Source: the human T2T-CHM13v2.0 reference genome, Homo sapiens
DNA: 64,000 nt
Assembly (NCBI RefSeq): GCF_009914755.1
Contig: NC_060941.1
Reading direction: 5' to 3' (one strand)
Below are positions 29,532 through 61,064 of this stretch, one piece after another (within the stretch, counting starts at the first letter, position 1; each line of letters begins with the position of its first letter). The position numbers were made by a program, and so were the translations under genes. A model generated the notes under the pieces. The model did no database searches. It was not told the DNA's origin and was given only the letters and a program-made list of their open reading frames with translations.

Positions 29532-29644
29532 AGGGTGGTGGGTTTGGGACACACTTCATGAATTAGACAGATAATAATGTATCACATACTTGCATGGGAT
29601 CCTCCAGGTGATGTAGCAGCACTTACTGATGTTGTCATTCATAT
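29532..29644 (-). pseudogene. Psi-C: isolated CC-chemokine cysteine exon
   Basis: ctgcttctttccAG|AT ATG AAT GAC AAC ATC AGT AAG TGC TGC TAC ATC ACC TGG AGG ATC CCA TGC AAG TAT...TGT CCC AAA CCC ACC ACC CT|GTGAGT; reads MNDNISKCCYITWRIPCKYVIHYY / LIHEVCPKPTT with one frameshift. Confidence 0.8.
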
Positions 29645-29939
29645 CTGGAAAGAAGCAGGTGGAAGTAGGGCTAAGCCATGCTCTAGGAGACTCAGACATG
29701 CTACTCCGTGCACCAAGAATGGGAGGCAATGCCTTTCACTCAGACAAGAAACACACCTAAAGCCAAAATACTAAATTACCTACAGCCACTGGAATCTGCC
29801 ATTTCTCTTGTGTAAGTTGTTCATCATCATTGAATAATAAACCCACTCACACTTTATCCCTACCAGGAACCTCACTCTCGCTTGACCAAATCCACTATCC
29901 TTTTTTTTGTGTAGGAGAAAAAATAAGGATCTTTATTTG

Positions 29940-30460
29940 TGAAGGAGTTAAGAATATGCCGCCCAAAATTCACTGTTCTGGCATATTTTAAATTAAAGGC
30001 ATGTAAAAAAAGAACCCAGCAGGTGCAAGAAGATCCTTCTTTATTTTGACCTTTATTGTCTTTATCAAAGGCAGGAAATGAAATGCCCATGTGAAAGATG
30101 TCCTCCTTATACCGAAAGAAAAATAATATTCTTATTAAGGATGGGAAGCTGAAGCCGAGAGAAGTCTACACAAACAAACCTTATCACCTTAGTCATTTCT
30201 GTACCCAATTAATCACCCAGCGCAGCCCCTTTGCCTTATCACATTTCACAACTTCCTATTTTTTGTCCAATTCAGTGTATAAGTAACTGACCCTAACTGC
30301 TTCTTTGAGTTTCTGTTCCTTATGAGGGATCTTGTGTCATGTAAAACTTGTATTAACTAAATTTGTGTACTTTTCTCCTATTAATCTATCATATGTCAAT
30401 TTAATTCTTGAGTCCAGGTGGGATCTTAAGAAAATGGAGATGGATTTTTGCCTCTCCTAA
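29940..30460 (+). mobile_element. ERV1 LTR (MER34-like)
   Basis: Starts tgaaggagttaagaatatgcc; family from memory. Confidence 0.55.
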
Positions 30461-31150
30461 GTTTGGTAGGTGCTTTCTATATAATGTGTTATTTAATTCT
30501 CCCCTAAACTCTAAGAGGTTGATGTTCTTGTTCCATTAGGAACATAAACTTGGCAAGCCTTGGTAAGGTTAAGGAACTTGTTGGCGTTAACCCATTGTTA
30601 AGTGGCTGAGACCTGAAACCGGGATGTCAATTCCAAGTCCCAAGACTTAACTTCTTCACCAACATTACTAACTCGTTTGGCTGCAAGTGTCATTTACCCT
30701 CTGAATGAGTTTCCACACCTGTGAAGAGGAGATTGATGCTTTCTCTCTGGCAGGGTAGTTGTGAGATTAGAAATAATGTATGTAAAGCACAAACCTGGCA
30801 TGACTACCATTTTTATTAAGCATTTATTCTGTGCCAGGTGGTGTTCTATGAGCTTAAATGTATGTATTAATTAATTTAACCATCACAACAAACTTGCATT
30901 GTAGATGTTATTATCATCTCCATTTTATAGAGAAGCAAACCAAGGCATAGAGAAATTAGGTAACCTGTGAAAGCCACATGGGAGAATAAGTGATAGCTAT
31001 TATTTTCAAAATTGTGATTTCCCATGCATCAAGCCCTTTCTTTGTCCTTCCTTGAGAGCCTCTCTCCTTAATTTAAGCTACCAGGGAAGGAGCAGCCCAA
31101 GAACTAGCCCATTCTGGCTCTTGCTTTTTTCACGGGAGGTTTTACTTTGC

Positions 31151-31460
31151 TTTTTTTTTTTTTTTTTTTTTTTTTTTAGGTAGGGCCTTGTTCTGTCATT
31201 CAGGCTGGAGTGCAGTGGCACAATTATGGCTCACTCCAGCCTAGACCACCTGGGCTCAAGCAATCCTCCCACCTCAGCCTCCTGAGTAGCTGAGACTACA
31301 GGAGTGCACCAGTATGTCTGGCTAATTTTTAAAATTTTGTAGTAGAGATGAGGTGTTACTATGTTTCCCAGGCTGGTTGTGAACTCCTAGGCTCGAGTGA
31401 TCCTCCTGCCTCGGCCTCCCAAAGTGCTGGGATTACAGGCATAAGCCACCACGCCCAGAC
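31151..31460 (-). mobile_element. Alu (AluJ-like)
   Basis: Poly-T followed by reverse dimer. Confidence 0.9.
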
Positions 31461-31845
31461 CTGTTCCACCTTGATTATTCTGTTTCTAGCCCAGTCTCAG
31501 GGCACCCTCATGAATCTCACATAGAGTTAATGTTTAGAAATTACCCGATATTGAATTACAACTTTATGACTCCAAATATTGATTTTGAAGATAATAAAAC
31601 TGTTTAAGTTACAATAATGATGAGGAAATAATTTTTTCAGGTCATAAAGAATCTTTTGTTTTTATGGTAACTTTTTATTTTAAAATAACTTTACACTGAC
31701 ATAGAAATTGCAGAAATAGTACATAAAGTTTCTGTGCAATCTTGACTCAGCTTCCCCCAATGGGAAGCTTATAAAACTTCATATACAACCGTATAAAAAA
31801 TGCATTATGATCATCAAAACTAGAAAATTGACAGTTCTACAATAT

Positions 31846-32165
31846 CATTATCATTATTATTTTTTGAGACAGAGTCTTGCTCTGTCACCCAGGCTGGAGT
31901 GCAGTGGCACCATCTTGGCTCACTGCAACCTCCGTCTCCTGGGTTCAAGTGATTCTTCTGCTTCAGCCTCCTGAGTAGCTGGGATTACAGGTGCTCACCG
32001 CCATGCTTGGCTAATTTTTGTATTTTTAGTAGATATGGGGTTTCTCCATGTTGACCAGGCTGGTCTTGAACCCCTGACCTCAAGTGATCCGCCTGCCTCA
32101 GCCTCCCAAAGTGCTGGGATTACAGGCATGAGCCACTGCGCCCAACCAGCCATCGTGCCCGGCCT
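31846..32165 (-). mobile_element. Alu (AluS-like)
   Basis: Reverse dimer within an L1M fragment. Confidence 0.9.
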
Positions 32166-32513
32166 CTACAATATTATCAACAAAACAGATCTTATTAAAA
32201 TTTTACCAATTTTTACATGCAGTCATTTTTCGTTGGTGTATAGTTGAATCATATGATCCCTTGGGTGTCTATGCCAACTTCTGGCCTCCCACATCTAAGT
32301 TACTGAATCATCTGCCTCCCATGTTTTGGTAAATAACATTCACCCTCCTCCCAGAGCTGCGGTCTTGCTTGACTGGCCCCACTTCCCCTATTCAAAGGAG
32401 AAAGGCTGGAGTTGCAGAAGGAGGCATGGGGAGAATTATGGCTTTATTTTTTATTAGACTATTCTTATTTTAGTAAAGTTGTTTTTGCACACTGGCTCAT
32501 GCAGCAGTGTATA

Positions 32514-59060: not shown

Positions 59061-59159
59061 AAAGTGAAAAACAAATTAACATAATGTATTAGCACAAGGA
59101 TAGGAAAATAAACCATTGGAACAGAACAGAAATTCCAAAAGCAGACCACAAAATCATTG

Positions 59160-59556
59160 AAATCAATAAACCGAGTAAAGCAGATTGCCCTCTCTAATGT
59201 GGTGGGCTTCATTCAATTAGTTGAAGTTCTGAATACAACAAAAAGCCTGACCCTCCTGCCTGTAAGAGGGAATTCCTCTTGCCTGATTGCCTTCACACTG
59301 GGACATAGGTTTTTCTCCTGCCTTTGAACTTAAACTGAAACATCATCTCTTCCTGGGCCTTAAGCCTGCCCATTCTCAGGTCTTTGAACTCAAACTGGGA
59401 CTACACTAGCAGCTCTCCTGGGTCTCCAGCTTGCCAGCTCACCCTGCAGATCTTGGAACTTGTCAGCCTTCATAATTAAATGAGCCAATTCTCTAATTTC
59501 TTATTTTTTATACACACACCATTGGTTCTGTGTCTCTGGGGAATCCTGACTTATAC
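59160..59556 (+). mobile_element. MLT2-like LTR 3' part
   Basis: agtaaagcagattgccctc...attggttctgtgtctctggggaatcctgacttataca. Confidence 0.7.
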
Positions 59557-60144
59557 AATGGTCTTACCAATGAGTTGCCAAGGTCCATTGGGTATTCATG
59601 TGGCAAAAAATAAATCTTGAATCCTTCTTCACACCAAACATAAAAATCAACTCCAGATGGATTGTAATTTAAATATTAATGCTAAAACAATAAAGCTTCT
59701 ACAAGTTAACATAGGAGGATATCTTTATTGCCTTAGGATAGGGGAAGATTTCTCATTAGATCACGAAAGGCCTAACTGTATATAAAAGATTGAAGCATGT
59801 GACTCTCTTAAAAGGAAAAACAATTGTGAAAATCCATTAAAGCATTCTGCTCTATCAAAGGAGGCTGTGACCACTCATTTCTGAGAAATATCTGTCATGT
59901 GAAAACATAATCACATGATTATGCATAATCCTAAGCATAATCCCTGGGTGCTTCCAACTCCTGGTCACCCATCTGGAGATACAACTTCTCCATAAGCCCC
60001 TCAATCAACAAGTGAACCACTCGTTTGTGTACCCTAAACCTTTCAAGTAACCATAGGCAACCCTGGGCTGAGAACTCACATGACACCACCATAGTTAAAA
60101 TGTCTTGCATCAGCACCTCCAATGTTCCCATGGTCCAGTCTGCC

Positions 60145-60151
60145 TATAAAA
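60145..60151 (+). promoter_or_regulatory. CCL18: CCL18 TATA box
   Basis: TATAAAA ~100 nt upstream of ATG. Confidence 0.8.
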
Positions 60152-60246
60152 AGGAGAGACAACAGCTCATACCCCAGAAGGAGGCCAGGAGTTGTGAGTT
60201 TCCAAGCCCCAGCTCACTCTGACCACTTCTCTGCCTGCCCAGCATC

Positions 60247-60313
60247 ATGAAGGGCCTTGCAGCTGCCCTCCTTGTCCTCGTCTGCACCATGGCCCTCTGC
60301 TCCTGTGCACAAG
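60247..60313 (+). CDS. CCL18: CCL18 exon 1 (MKGLAAALLVLVCTMALCSCAQ); remaining exons lie beyond the window
   Basis: gcatcATG start, CCL18 signal peptide, phase-1 GTGAGT donor. Confidence 0.97.
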
Positions 60314-60962
60314 GTGAGTCTGTCATCCATGTGCTTTGATGGCTCCCTGGGCAGAAGTCAGGCGACATCTTCCAAGTGCTGTGGCCTGAAAACCCTCGTG
60401 TGAAATTAGGGATCCTCAAATGGGGTTTCAAAGTGACATCATTGTTTTCTTCAAGAAGGTTGAAAAGCAGTCTATTGATCTGGGCAGCAGGATGGGAGTC
60501 AGAGAAGTTTTATCCTACTGAGATAAATGAGATGGTTGAAGTCTAATTCATTGGGTTATTAGCGTGAGGTAGAATCTAGGTCTATTTAGTTCTCACTGGT
60601 GCTGGTAAGTTTTACAATGACCTCAGCAGTCTCCTAGAGTTCAACCCCTTGGGTAACATAAAAGATGTCTATACTTTTCTCAGCTATCTTGTGATTTAAT
60701 CTATTAGAAAAAAAATTCCCCAAGGAGAGTTAGGAGAAGGGCATAGACTATTCAGGGAGCTTGATTCCCTGTAGCGTAAAATAAAGACTAAAATGGAGAG
60801 ACAAGACTAGGGAAATTAAGGAGAAACAAACAAAAAGCCAGATTATTTCCAGCTTTCTTTTCCTGCAGGCCTCAACTCTGAGCTATGCTGTCTCCCTTTG
60901 CTCCTTTGTGACCCGCCTGGGCTTCTTCTCCTGAGCAACTCCTGTTGTCTTTGTTCCCTCAG

Positions 60963-61064
60963 ATAAGATTCACACCCCATGCATCTGCTGCTTCTCCTAC
61001 ACCTCCCAGTAGATGCACTGCAAATTTTCGGTTGCCTATTATAAAACCAGTGGTGAGCGGTCTT
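60963..61064 (+). pseudogene. CCL18 intron-1 pseudoexon (MIP-1alpha-like exon 2)
   Basis: ttgttccctcAG|AT AAG...; DKIHTPCICCFSYTSQ*MHCKFSVAYYKTSGERS; TAG 61010-61012; truncated by L1M-like sequence. Consistent with the known gene-fusion origin of CCL18. Confidence 0.9.

What the first reader, a model, noticed from the sequence alone, without database searches (positions are those of the whole stretch)
29532..61064. Hidden array of dead CC-chemokine genes between CCL23 and CCL18
Seen: three separate minus-strand chemokine remnants (psi-C, psi-B, psi-A) plus the CCL18 pseudoexon. Each keeps the CC-chemokine exon grammar: phase-1 acceptor, seven full codons before CC, YxxT..C.KP-like core, and FxT..xVCxNP...WVQEY in exon 3 where present. 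Known: CCL3/4/18/23 share this exon structure. Inference: the ancestral locus held at least four more MIP-type chemokine genes, and some may be intact in other mammals. I do not recall annotated CCL pseudogenes here but cannot check.
Basis: partly seen in the sequence, partly recalled or inferred. Interest (0 to 1): 0.9.

Follow-up and report, generated by a model that had tools for sequence, protein, structure and literature searches.

The report
Dead chemokine gene relics near CCL18
The stretch between the human CCL23 and CCL18 genes holds the decayed remains of several old, tandemly duplicated CC-chemokine genes; this is expected for this fast-turnover gene cluster and is partly already published.

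Summary
The relics are real. Reversed and shuffled windows give nothing comparable.

- psi-A (52644-55005, minus) is a whole CCL3-like gene, from promoter to 3'UTR.
- psi-B (36401-37713, minus) is a CCL3/CCL18-like exon 2, intron 2, exon 3 and 3'UTR, cut off at its 5' end by a repeat.
- psi-C (28775-29644, minus) is closest to CCL14, not to CCL3/CCL4.
- The CCL18 pseudoexon lies at 60963-61052.

An inverted CCL3-like 5' unit sits in CCL18 intron 1 (61410-62495, minus).

All are intron-bearing (unprocessed) pseudogenes with stops, frameshifts and lost splice sites or start codons. They are very old, with terminal branches of 0.26-0.44 substitutions per site.

The novelty is limited. A 2013 figure legend states that two CCL3 pseudogenes flank CCL18 (Nomiyama 2003). 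The fusion origin of CCL18 and its pseudoexons were published in 1999-2000. I found psi-B, psi-C, psi-D and the inverted unit in no paper that I could search.

Whether intact orthologues exist in other mammals could not be tested here.

The parts
A CCL14-like relic holding intron 2 and the first part of exon 3. No exon 2 or exon 1 was found.
   Evidence: The CCL14 single-sequence nhmmer model gives E 2.2e-13 (43 bits) over 24543-25049. The first ~60 nt of that alignment lie in dispersed-repeat DNA and are discounted. The CCL14+15+16 profile gives E 7.5e-9, and the CCL23 and CCL15 models give 15.2 and 11.1 bits. The core is single copy in the genome.
28775..28966 (-). psi-C: end of intron 2 and a heavily decayed exon 3.
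   Evidence: CCL14 blastn matches 28895-28966 (E 1.3e-4). The CCL14 model matches 28860-28966 (E 8.3e-4). The exon 3 profile gives two co-linear pieces, 28895-28927 (E 9.6) and 28775-28838 (E 0.16), with the right spacing. The CCL4 model spans 28776-29618 at 18.4 bits. All frames carry stops.
29316..29531 (-). psi-C intron 2, 5' part, starting with the donor GTGAGT at 29526-29531.
   Evidence: It is co-linear with CCL14 exon 2 plus intron 2 (206/354 identity). blastn of 29327-29473 against CCL14 intron 2 gives 69.6%, E 3e-13. The region is single copy in the genome.
29532..29644 (-). psi-C exon 2 (113 nt). The acceptor AG and seven codons before CC are kept. A 6-nt deletion follows CC. A 4-nt insertion shifts the frame and gives TGA at 29556-29558. 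CPKP and the donor follow in the shifted frame.
   Evidence: The exon 2 profile gives E 5.7e-4. The best human CC exon 2 peptide out of 22 is CCL14 (E 7.5e-4), followed by a chr7 gene (CCL24 by recall, 0.071) and CCL15 (0.067). In the PDB search, 3 of 4 hits are CC chemokines, at E 0.21-0.68. There was no Pfam IL8 hit.
36401..36864 (-). psi-B exon 3 and 3'UTR homologue. Coding-like part 36782-36864, acceptor AG->TG, Cys->Tyr, TAA at 36782-36784. Exon 1 of lncRNA LOC105371746 (36646-36732) lies inside it.
   Evidence: A profile of exon 3 plus 3'UTR built without psi-B hits 36443-36900 at E 2.6e-46 (152 bits). blastn against CCL18 gives E 1.3e-20, and against CCL3 gives E 3e-11 and 4e-9. All 22 PDB hits are CC chemokines at the cognate C-terminal position, at E 0.1-1.5. 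Single copy in the genome.
36865..37638 (-). psi-B intron 2, split by an Alu insertion (about 37004-37384).
   Evidence: The intron 2 profile (built without psi-B) hits 37357-37563 at E 1e-13 and 36917-36970 at E 0.024. The Alu is shown by many about 80% matches and by the masked stretch in the hub table.
37639..37713 (-). psi-B exon 2 remnant. It starts at the CC codons (37708-37713), with TAG at 37687-37689, 9-nt and 8-nt deletions, and a donor GT at 37637-37638. It has no acceptor, exon 1 or promoter.
   Evidence: The exon 2 profile gives E 3.2e-4 and the CCL3+4+18 profile gives E 1.3e-8. The upstream DNA 37716-38600 is an interspersed repeat (2648 first-look candidates). The 5'-unit profiles find no partner for it in the window.
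52644..55005 (-). psi-A: a complete CCL3-like unprocessed pseudogene. Exon 1-like 54646-54723 with ATG->ACA. Exon 2 53817-53931 with TAG at 53885-53887 and donor GT->AT. Exon 3 from 53406 with a 1-nt deletion and a TGA. This is most probably the published upstream 'CCL3-ps'.
   Evidence: CCL3 gene positions 128-2007 align to 55005-53118 (58% over 1991 columns, E 8.5e-58). The CCL18 3'UTR aligns to 52644-52972. tblastn with CCL3 exon 2 gives E 1.7e-11. Pfam IL8 gives 18.1 and 15.3 bits. The lesions are shown.
60025..61052 (+). CCL18 5' unit: CCL3-like promoter, the live CCL18 exon 1, intron 1, and pseudoexon 2 (60963-61052, TAG at 61010-61012, cut off after the codons YYKTS). Already published.
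   Evidence: CCL3 positions 145-1234 align to 60025-61050 (E 2.6e-38). The exon 2 profile gives E 7.2e-11 and Pfam IL8 gives 15.5 bits. The fusion origin is stated in passages of PMC3749542, PMC7663205 and PMC3782048.
61410..62495 (-).
   Evidence: The 5' profile hits 62017-62495 and the intron 1 profile hits 61499-62014. This unit was itself among the sequences those two profiles were built from, so their E-values are circular and are not given. Independent support comes from blastn against CCL3 (E 7.6e-26), the CCL3-only and CCL18-only models (E 1.7e-25 and 3.7e-14) and the exon 2 profile built from working genes, which hits 61410-61466 at E 1.3e-3. The exon 1 relic is shown and the exon 2 reading.

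Best explanation
The CCL23-CCL18 interval is a graveyard of unprocessed (intron-bearing) CC-chemokine pseudogenes. They were left by old tandem duplications in the 17q12 MIP/HCC sub-cluster, that is, by birth-and-death evolution.

In the window there are four minus-strand relics. Two are CCL14-like (psi-D, psi-C) and two are CCL3/CCL18-like (psi-B, psi-A). There are also two CCL3-like 5' units at CCL18: its own promoter/exon 1 unit with a dead exon 2, and an inverted unit in intron 1.

None can encode a chemokine. Each carries several independent lesions: lost start codon, premature stops, frameshifts, lost splice sites, and truncation or interruption by repeats.

Shown here: homology, gene-like co-linearity including introns and UTRs, the lesions, and the closest paralogue.

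Inferred: they are non-functional as genes. The duplications are ancient, at or before the radiation of placental mammals. At least some units were copied when already dead. The only co-opted piece is the CCL18 5' unit, which supplies the promoter and exon 1 of a living gene.
For: 1. Profile scans separate the relics from noise by 6 to over 100 bits. The reversed and shuffled controls stay at or below 6.3 bits.
2. Homology extends into non-coding parts. For psi-A it covers promoter to 3'UTR (E 8.5e-58). For psi-B it covers intron 2 (E 1e-13) and exon 3 plus 3'UTR (E 2.6e-46), using profiles that exclude psi-B. For psi-C and psi-D it covers CCL14 intron 2 (E 2e-13 and 2.2e-13). Retained introns exclude retrocopies.
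3. The psi-B, psi-C and psi-D cores are single copy genome-wide, so they are not interspersed repeats.
4. The lesions are listed.
5. Age. K80 distances between CCL3-like units are 0.5-0.9. ML terminal branches are 0.26-0.44 with short, weakly supported internal branches. psi-C and psi-D are 0.81 and 0.71 from CCL14, while CCL3-CCL4 is 0.66 and CCL15-CCL23 is 0.22.
6. Print: passages in PMC3749542 state that CCL3 was duplicated repeatedly, that human and mouse keep inactivated copies, and that two CCL3-ps flank CCL18.
Against: - Protein-level evidence is weak. No relic reaches the Pfam IL8 cut-off, and psi-B e2, psi-B e3 and psi-C e2 give no IL8 hit at all. The whole-genome PF00048 scan misses all of them.
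- psi-C and psi-D are close to saturation. Global identity to CCL14 is 53-56%, against 43-48% for reversed-sequence nulls. Their assignment to CCL14 therefore rests on local patches.
- Part of the first psi-D alignment was repeat DNA.
- A predicted lncRNA starts inside psi-B, so 'no function' is not proven.
- The trees are star-like, with support values of 38-80, so the order of duplications is unresolved.
- The dating uses rate calibrations that I recalled and did not compute here.
Confidence: 0.88

Rival explanations
1. The number of genes that once worked is smaller than the number of relics. psi-B, the CCL18 5' unit and the inverted unit would be copies of a single CCL3-like gene that was already dead, spread by later segmental duplication or rearrangement.
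For: psi-B and the CCL18 pseudoexon carry the same CAG-TAG at the same exon 2 position and share a 'CAAATTT' stretch. The inverted unit reads CCATA--TCCACTGCAAATTT there. In the 50-64 nt overlap, psi-B's best partner is the CCL18 5' unit (37/55) and the inverted unit's best partner is also the CCL18 5' unit (35/50). A recent example of such copying exists: an Alu-bounded 1.85 kb piece holding the psi-B exon 2 relic is duplicated 239 kb away at about 94% identity.
Against: It rests on one shared stop and a 50-64 nt overlap. The identity margins are small (37/55 against 35/55 for CCL3 and CCL4). The trees do not resolve this clade (support 38-80). The two CCL18-associated 5' units are far apart from each other (K80 0.67-0.95). 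A parallel change to TAG cannot be excluded.
Confidence: 0.35
2. The weakest relics (psi-C, psi-D) are chance or compositional matches, or shared ancient repeats, and not dead chemokine genes.
For: There was no Pfam IL8 hit for psi-C exon 2. The PDB hits are at E 0.21-0.68 only. Global distances to CCL14 are close to the null. A neighbouring hit at 25419-25684 was a repeat or microsatellite artefact, and the 5' end of the psi-D alignment is dispersed-repeat DNA.
Against: The CCL14 model gives 43 bits for each, against at most 2.5 bits in the controls for that model. Three or four different paralogue models hit the same places. In psi-C the exon 2 acceptor, the CC codons, the donor, intron 2 and the exon 3 start are co-linear and correctly spaced. 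Both cores are single copy in the genome.
Confidence: 0.07
3. Some relics are kept because they now act as non-coding functional DNA, for example as lncRNA exons or promoters, or as enhancers of CCL18 or CCL23.
For: Exon 1 of the predicted lncRNA LOC105371746 (36646-36732, minus) lies inside the psi-B 3'UTR homologue (hub table). The CCL18 5' unit shows that a dead unit's promoter and exon 1 can be reused. A roughly 35-nt patch of intron 2 is shared by CCL14, psi-C and psi-D.
Against: The divergence looks neutral, with K80 of 0.5-0.9. The lncRNA is only a predicted model. No expression or conservation data are available here.
Confidence: 0.12
4. They are processed pseudogenes (retrocopies) of CCL3 or CCL14 mRNAs.
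For: None found.
Against: Introns are present at the conserved positions, and promoter and intron homology is strong.
Confidence: 0.01

Closest known systems
Human 'CCL3-ps' genes flanking CCL18 (Nomiyama et al. 2003, J Interferon Cytokine Res 23:37, as cited in the Fig. 4 legend of PMC3749542)
   Same: psi-A is a CCL3-like pseudogene lying between CCL23 and CCL18, on the CCL23 side of CCL18, as that legend describes. I also located the partner on the CCL3 side, at window-continued coordinates 76707-78676.
   Different: The 2003 paper is not held, so I could not compare coordinates. The legend speaks of one pseudogene on each side. psi-B, a second and more distant CCL3-like relic, is therefore probably not among them.
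[quoted passage not shown]
   Same: The 5' unit (promoter, exon 1, dead exon 2) and the 3' unit (own promoter and exon 1 relic with ATG->CTG, then live exons 2-3) are both seen here.
   Different: I also find a third, inverted CCL3-like 5' unit between them (61410-62495, minus). Whether those papers describe it is unknown. Neither is held. For Politz 2000 I saw only the title, in a reference list.
CCL3P1 (formerly CCL3L2) and other chemokine-cluster pseudogenes (mouse Ccl16-ps, PPBPP1/2, CXCL1P)
   Same: They are the same kind of object: unprocessed pseudogenes made by tandem duplication in chemokine clusters (passages of PMC3749542 and PMC10189238).
   Different: CCL3P1 is a young copy in the copy-number-variable CCL3L/CCL4L unit. 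The relics here are far older and more decayed, with K80 of 0.5-0.9 to every paralogue.
Guinea-pig CclN1, a novel gene between Ccl23 and Ccl3a (PMC3749542)
   Same: It lies in the same interval of the cluster as psi-C and psi-D. CclN1 is reported as most similar to Ccl24. The second-best human match of psi-C exon 2 is the chr7 gene that I take, by recall, to be CCL24.
   Different: No sequence comparison was possible. The best match of psi-C is CCL14, not CCL24.

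Membership tests
Chemokine IL8-like domain (Pfam PF00048) | HMM score at or above the gathering cut-off (21.3 bits) | tested here: not met
   psi-A e2 scores 18.1 bits, psi-A e3 15.3, and the CCL18 pseudoexon 15.5. psi-B e2, psi-B e3, psi-C e2 and the inverted e2 give no IL8 hit. That is 3 of 7 peptides with IL8 hits, all below the cut-off. Single exons of living genes do pass. This is expected for decayed single exons.
Chemokine IL8-like domain (Pfam PF00048) | Adjacent CC cysteines near the start of exon 2, behind a phase-1 acceptor | tested here: met
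   Met in psi-A, psi-C and the CCL18 pseudoexon (acceptor AG plus 7 codons plus TGC TGC). psi-B keeps TGC TGC but has no acceptor. The inverted unit has lost the CC.
Unprocessed (duplicated) pseudogene | Introns and flanks of the parent gene type retained, co-linear with living paralogues | tested here: met
   psi-A covers promoter to 3'UTR. psi-B covers intron 2, exon 3 and 3'UTR. psi-C covers exon 2, intron 2 and the exon 3 start. psi-D covers intron 2 and the exon 3 start.
Unprocessed (duplicated) pseudogene | Lesions that prevent a full-length product | tested here: met
   The stops are TAG 53885-53887, TAG 37687-37689, TGA 29556-29558 and TAG 61010-61012. There are also frameshifts, ATG->ACA in psi-A, donor GT->AT in psi-A, acceptor AG->TG in psi-B, and missing 5' parts in psi-B, psi-C and psi-D.
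Unprocessed (duplicated) pseudogene | No translated product; not expressed as a chemokine | not testable with these tools
   No expression or proteome data are available here. Only a predicted lncRNA overlaps psi-B (hub table).
CCL3/CCL18 (MIP-1alpha-like) lineage | Closest living paralogue, including non-coding DNA, is CCL3 or CCL18 | tested here: met
   For psi-A the CCL18 model gives 175.6 bits and CCL3 159.4, against 89.1 for CCL14. For psi-B, CCL18 gives 56.5+18.1 and CCL3 42.9+28.7, against 19.7+18.8 for CCL14. This does not hold for psi-C or psi-D.
CCL14 (HCC-1-like) lineage | Closest living paralogue is CCL14 | tested here: inconclusive
   CCL14 is the best model for psi-C (43.2+11.4 bits, next CCL4 at 18.4) and for psi-D (43.0 bits, next CCL23 at 15.2). 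However, global K80 to CCL14 is 0.71-0.81, as deep as CCL14-CCL15 (0.63) and near the null of 0.94-1.26. They are ancient separate paralogues, not recent CCL14 copies.
Published upstream 'CCL3-ps' (Nomiyama 2003) | Same element as the one mapped in that paper | not testable with these tools
   The paper is not held. I saw only the later legend. The position between CCL23 and CCL18 fits psi-A.

The most novel reading that the evidence does not exclude
psi-C and psi-D would be the last human traces of an old CCL14/CCL24-like sub-family that once sat between CCL23 and the CCL3-like genes. That sub-family would survive intact in some mammals, with guinea-pig CclN1 as the candidate. CCL18 would be built on three, not two, CCL3-like units, and its promoter/exon 1 unit would descend from a copy that was already dead, sharing its stop codon with psi-B and the inverted unit. 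A living human chemokine gene would then have been assembled by rescuing the regulatory half of a pseudogene.
Probability: 0.2. Interest if true: 0.5.

Novelty: new member of a known kind. Interest (0 to 1): 0.3.

Why it matters
It gives a base-level map of the dead units in a medically important chemokine cluster (CCL3, CCL4, CCL18, CCL14, CCL15, CCL23).

- It shows that the CCL14-type and CCL3-type sub-families were both larger in the past.
- It supplies landmarks for working out orthology between species in a region where orthology is notoriously unclear.
- It refines the history of CCL18, a gene reported to have orthologues only in primates and lacking a mouse model.

The kind of object and the process (birth-and-death with pseudogenes) are textbook. 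Part of it is already in print. No new mechanism or function is implied.

Tried and rejected
- The whole-genome PF00048 six-frame scan found nothing in the span. It is too insensitive for decayed exons.
- An nhmmer exon 3 hit at 24566-24631 (E 0.03) looked like noise at the protein level. Longer models later showed it to be the exon 3 start of psi-D.
- A 77% match between 49138-50266 and DNA downstream of CCL15 is not a duplication unit. It is a high-copy interspersed repeat, with 25250 first-look candidates.
- A CCL16 5'-region hit at 25419-25684 (E 2e-8 to 3e-18) is a (GGAT)n microsatellite next to dispersed-repeat DNA, with a bias score of 34.8. I rejected it as an exon 1 for psi-D.
- No promoter, exon 1 or intron 1 was found for psi-B, psi-C or psi-D with CCL3-type profiles or single-gene 5' models.
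- A plus-strand tblastn hit at 28822-28917 (E 0.063) is on the wrong strand for psi-C and was treated as chance.
- The search for homologous proteins with psi-A exon 2 (stop read as X) found no candidate sharing enough 5-residue words. I did not repeat it for the other relics.
- Trees of the CCL3-like units are star-like and do not order the duplications.
- Papers not held: Nomiyama 2003, Tasaki 1999, Schutyser 2005, Zlotnik 2006 and Politz 2000.
- PMC3568907 held nothing on this locus.
- Full-text searches for names such as 'CCL14 pseudogene', 'CCL3-like pseudogene', 'CCL18 pseudogene', 'CCL3P2' and 'LOC105371746' returned 0 papers. The searches gave only the papers cited here.

Full report
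**What is there**

The window is human chr17 between CCL23 and the first exon of CCL18. A whole-genome six-frame scan with Pfam PF00048 gave 85 matches at E<=10. Only two lie in the window, both CCL23 exons, and none lies in 29532-61064. Protein-domain search alone would therefore have refuted the finding.

DNA-level comparison does not refute it. blastn of the CCL3 locus against the window gave four matches:
- a 1.9 kb co-linear match on the minus strand at 53118-55005 (58% over 1991 columns, E 2e-56);
- the expected match to the CCL18 promoter, exon 1 and intron 1 (60025-61050);
- a further minus-strand match at 62008-62495;
- a match at 36787-36956.

The CCL14 locus matched 29327-29473 (69.6%, E 7e-12). 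tblastn with exon-wise translations of seven neighbouring chemokine genes found the corresponding exon-like pieces.

**Is it more than chance?**

I built nhmmer DNA profiles of exon 2 and exon 3, with short flanks, from CCL3, 4, 14, 15, 16, 18 and 23. I scanned the whole window on both strands.
- The exon 2 profile returned 13 hits at E<=10. After CCL23 itself came psi-A (1.3e-28), the CCL18 pseudoexon (7.2e-11), psi-B (3.2e-4), psi-C (5.7e-4) and an inverted fragment at 61410-61466 (1.3e-3). Noise began at E 0.55.
- The exon 3 profile returned psi-A (3.2e-19) and psi-B (5.4e-12).

Profiles of the non-coding parts of CCL3-like units, built without psi-B, hit psi-B intron 2 (E 1e-13) and its exon 3 plus 3'UTR (E 2.6e-46, 152 bits). 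A CCL14 model hit psi-C at 29325-29639 (E 2e-13) and 28860-28966 (E 8e-4).

Nine profiles were run on the reversed window and on ten block-shuffled windows. None gave anything better than E 0.081 or 6.3 bits.

The psi-B, psi-C and psi-D cores are single copy in the genome, so they are not interspersed repeats.

Protein-level support stays weak. Pfam IL8 was hit by 3 of 7 peptides, all under the cut-off. For psi-C exon 2, 3 of 4 PDB hits are chemokines (E 0.21-0.68). For psi-B exon 3, all 22 PDB hits are chemokines (E 0.1-1.5). psi-B exon 2 gave no PDB hit.

**Anatomy**

- psi-A (52644-55005, minus) is a whole gene. It has a promoter and an exon 1 relic at 54646-54723 with ATG->ACA. Exon 2 is 53817-53931, with acceptor and seven codons before CC intact, TAG at 53885-53887 and donor GT->AT. 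Exon 3 starts at 53406, with a 1-nt deletion and a TGA in place of the Trp codon. The 3'UTR homology runs to 52644.
- psi-B (36401-37713, minus) starts abruptly at the CC codons (37708-37713). The DNA upstream is an interspersed repeat (2648 first-look candidates; it resembles L1 by recall). No 5' unit for it exists in the window. It has TAG at 37687-37689, 9-nt and 8-nt deletions, an Alu in intron 2, an exon 3 acceptor AG->TG, and Cys->Tyr.
- psi-C exon 2 is 29532-29644, with acceptor, seven codons and CC intact. A 6-nt deletion is followed by a 4-nt insertion that gives TGA at 29556-29558. CPKP and a GTGAGT donor then follow in the shifted frame. Intron 2 is co-linear with CCL14. Exon 3 is recognisable only as DNA (28775-28966).
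- The CCL18 pseudoexon is 60963-61052, with TAG at 61010-61012. It breaks off after the codons YYKTS.

- psi-D (24543-24990, minus) is intron 2 plus the start of exon 3 of a CCL14-like gene. The CCL14 model gives E 2.2e-13, the CCL14+15+16 profile gives E 7.5e-9, and the CCL23 and CCL15 models also hit it. The first roughly 60 nt of that alignment fall in dispersed-repeat DNA (23 scattered matches) and are discounted.
- An inverted CCL3-like 5' unit lies inside CCL18 intron 1 (61410-62495, minus). It holds a promoter, an exon 1 relic without ATG, the whole of intron 1 and a decayed exon 2.

Beyond the window I located two more pieces. The CCL18 3' unit has its own promoter and exon 1 relic (ATG->CTG). 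A further CCL3 pseudogene lies between CCL18 and CCL3.

**Which families**

Single-gene models over exon 2, intron 2 and exon 3 rank the paralogues as follows:
- psi-A: CCL18 175.6 bits, CCL3 159.4, CCL14 89.1.
- psi-B: CCL18 56.5+18.1, CCL3 42.9+28.7.
- psi-C: CCL14 43.2+11.4, then CCL4 18.4.
- psi-D: CCL14 43.0, then CCL23 15.2.

Against exon peptides of 22 human CC genes, psi-C exon 2 is closest to CCL14 (E 7.5e-4). A chr7 gene that I take by recall to be CCL24 comes next (0.071). So two relics are CCL3-type and two are CCL14-type. 'MIP-type' is wrong for psi-C.

**Age and history**

K80 distances between CCL3-like units are 0.5-0.9 in non-coding parts. ML trees are star-like, with terminal branches of 0.26-0.44 and support of 38-80. 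psi-C and psi-D lie 0.81 and 0.71 from CCL14. For scale, CCL3-CCL4 is 0.66, CCL14-CCL15 is 0.63, CCL3-CCL18 is 0.39, CCL15-CCL23 is 0.22, and reversed-sequence nulls are 0.94-1.26.

CCL3 and CCL4 both have mouse counterparts (passage in PMC3749542). I therefore infer that these duplications are about as old as, or older than, the primate-rodent split. The absolute rates behind this are recalled, not computed.

psi-B and the CCL18 pseudoexon share CAG-TAG at the same codon and a 'CAAATTT' stretch, and the inverted unit probably does too. In the short overlap they are each other's best partners by small margins. This hints that a dead copy was duplicated. It also means that the number of relics is an upper bound on the number of genes that once worked.

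**What is known**

- The Fig. [quoted passage not shown] 2003. Its text says that CCL3 was duplicated repeatedly and that guinea pig has Ccl3a and a novel CclN1 between Ccl23 and Ccl3a (passages).
- The fusion origin of CCL18 is stated in passages of PMC7663205 and PMC3782048.
[quoted passage not shown] AMAC-1' (Politz 2000) is listed in PMC9953349.
- None of the primary papers is held.
- The RefSeq table supplied with the finding lists none of the relics.
- Searches for names that would fit psi-B, psi-C or psi-D returned no paper.
- GENCODE could not be consulted.

**Verdict**

The open question is whether any of them is intact in other mammals. psi-C or psi-D against guinea-pig CclN1 is the most interesting case. 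Answering it needs mammalian genome alignments that are not available here.

Noticed in passing
window 37061-38933; copy at G000:C17:36750123-36751968 (L026): An Alu-bounded 1.85 kb piece is duplicated in inverted orientation about 239 kb upstream on chr17, at about 94% identity. It holds the psi-B exon 2 relic, the 5' part of its intron 2 and the adjoining repeat. The 111-nt exon 2 relic is 100% identical. psi-B exon 3 and 3'UTR are not in the copy.
   Followed up: partly
window 36646-36732 (minus): Exon 1 of the predicted lncRNA LOC105371746 lies inside the 3'UTR-homologous part of psi-B. It starts about 50 nt downstream of the psi-B stop codon (36782-36784).
   Followed up: no
window 29431-29463 and 24890-24921 (minus); CCL14 intron 2 (L005): A roughly 35-nt patch of intron 2 holding a CACCTG/CAGGTG-like palindrome is shared by CCL14, psi-C and psi-D. 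psi-C against psi-D is 85% over 33 nt (E 5e-4). It is much better kept than the surrounding intron.
   Followed up: no
window-continued 76707-78676 (L007/L008), minus strand: A second CCL3-like pseudogene lies between CCL18 and CCL3, with its own stop in exon 2 at the Tyr codon and a partly deleted exon 1. It is presumably the published downstream 'CCL3-ps'.
   Followed up: partly
window-continued 65253-65879 (L001), plus strand: The 3' CCL3-like unit of CCL18 keeps its own promoter-like region and an exon 1 relic with ATG->CTG (65664-65739). These lie upstream of the live exons 2 and 3.
   Followed up: partly
window 49138-50266; also L004 4-1125 and window 12038-12586: A roughly 1.1 kb element is 77% identical to DNA downstream of CCL15. 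It is a high-copy interspersed repeat (25250 first-look candidates genome-wide) and not part of a chemokine duplication unit.
   Followed up: yes
window 25419-25684 (minus): A (GGAT)n-type microsatellite next to dispersed-repeat DNA gives a spurious, high-bias nhmmer hit with the 5' region of CCL16.
   Followed up: yes
window 61053-61409: The spacer between the truncated CCL18 pseudoexon and the inverted unit is AT-rich and has no chemokine homology. It holds a short tandem duplication near 61285-61310. The two convergent units may have lost their 3' halves in one deletion.
   Followed up: no
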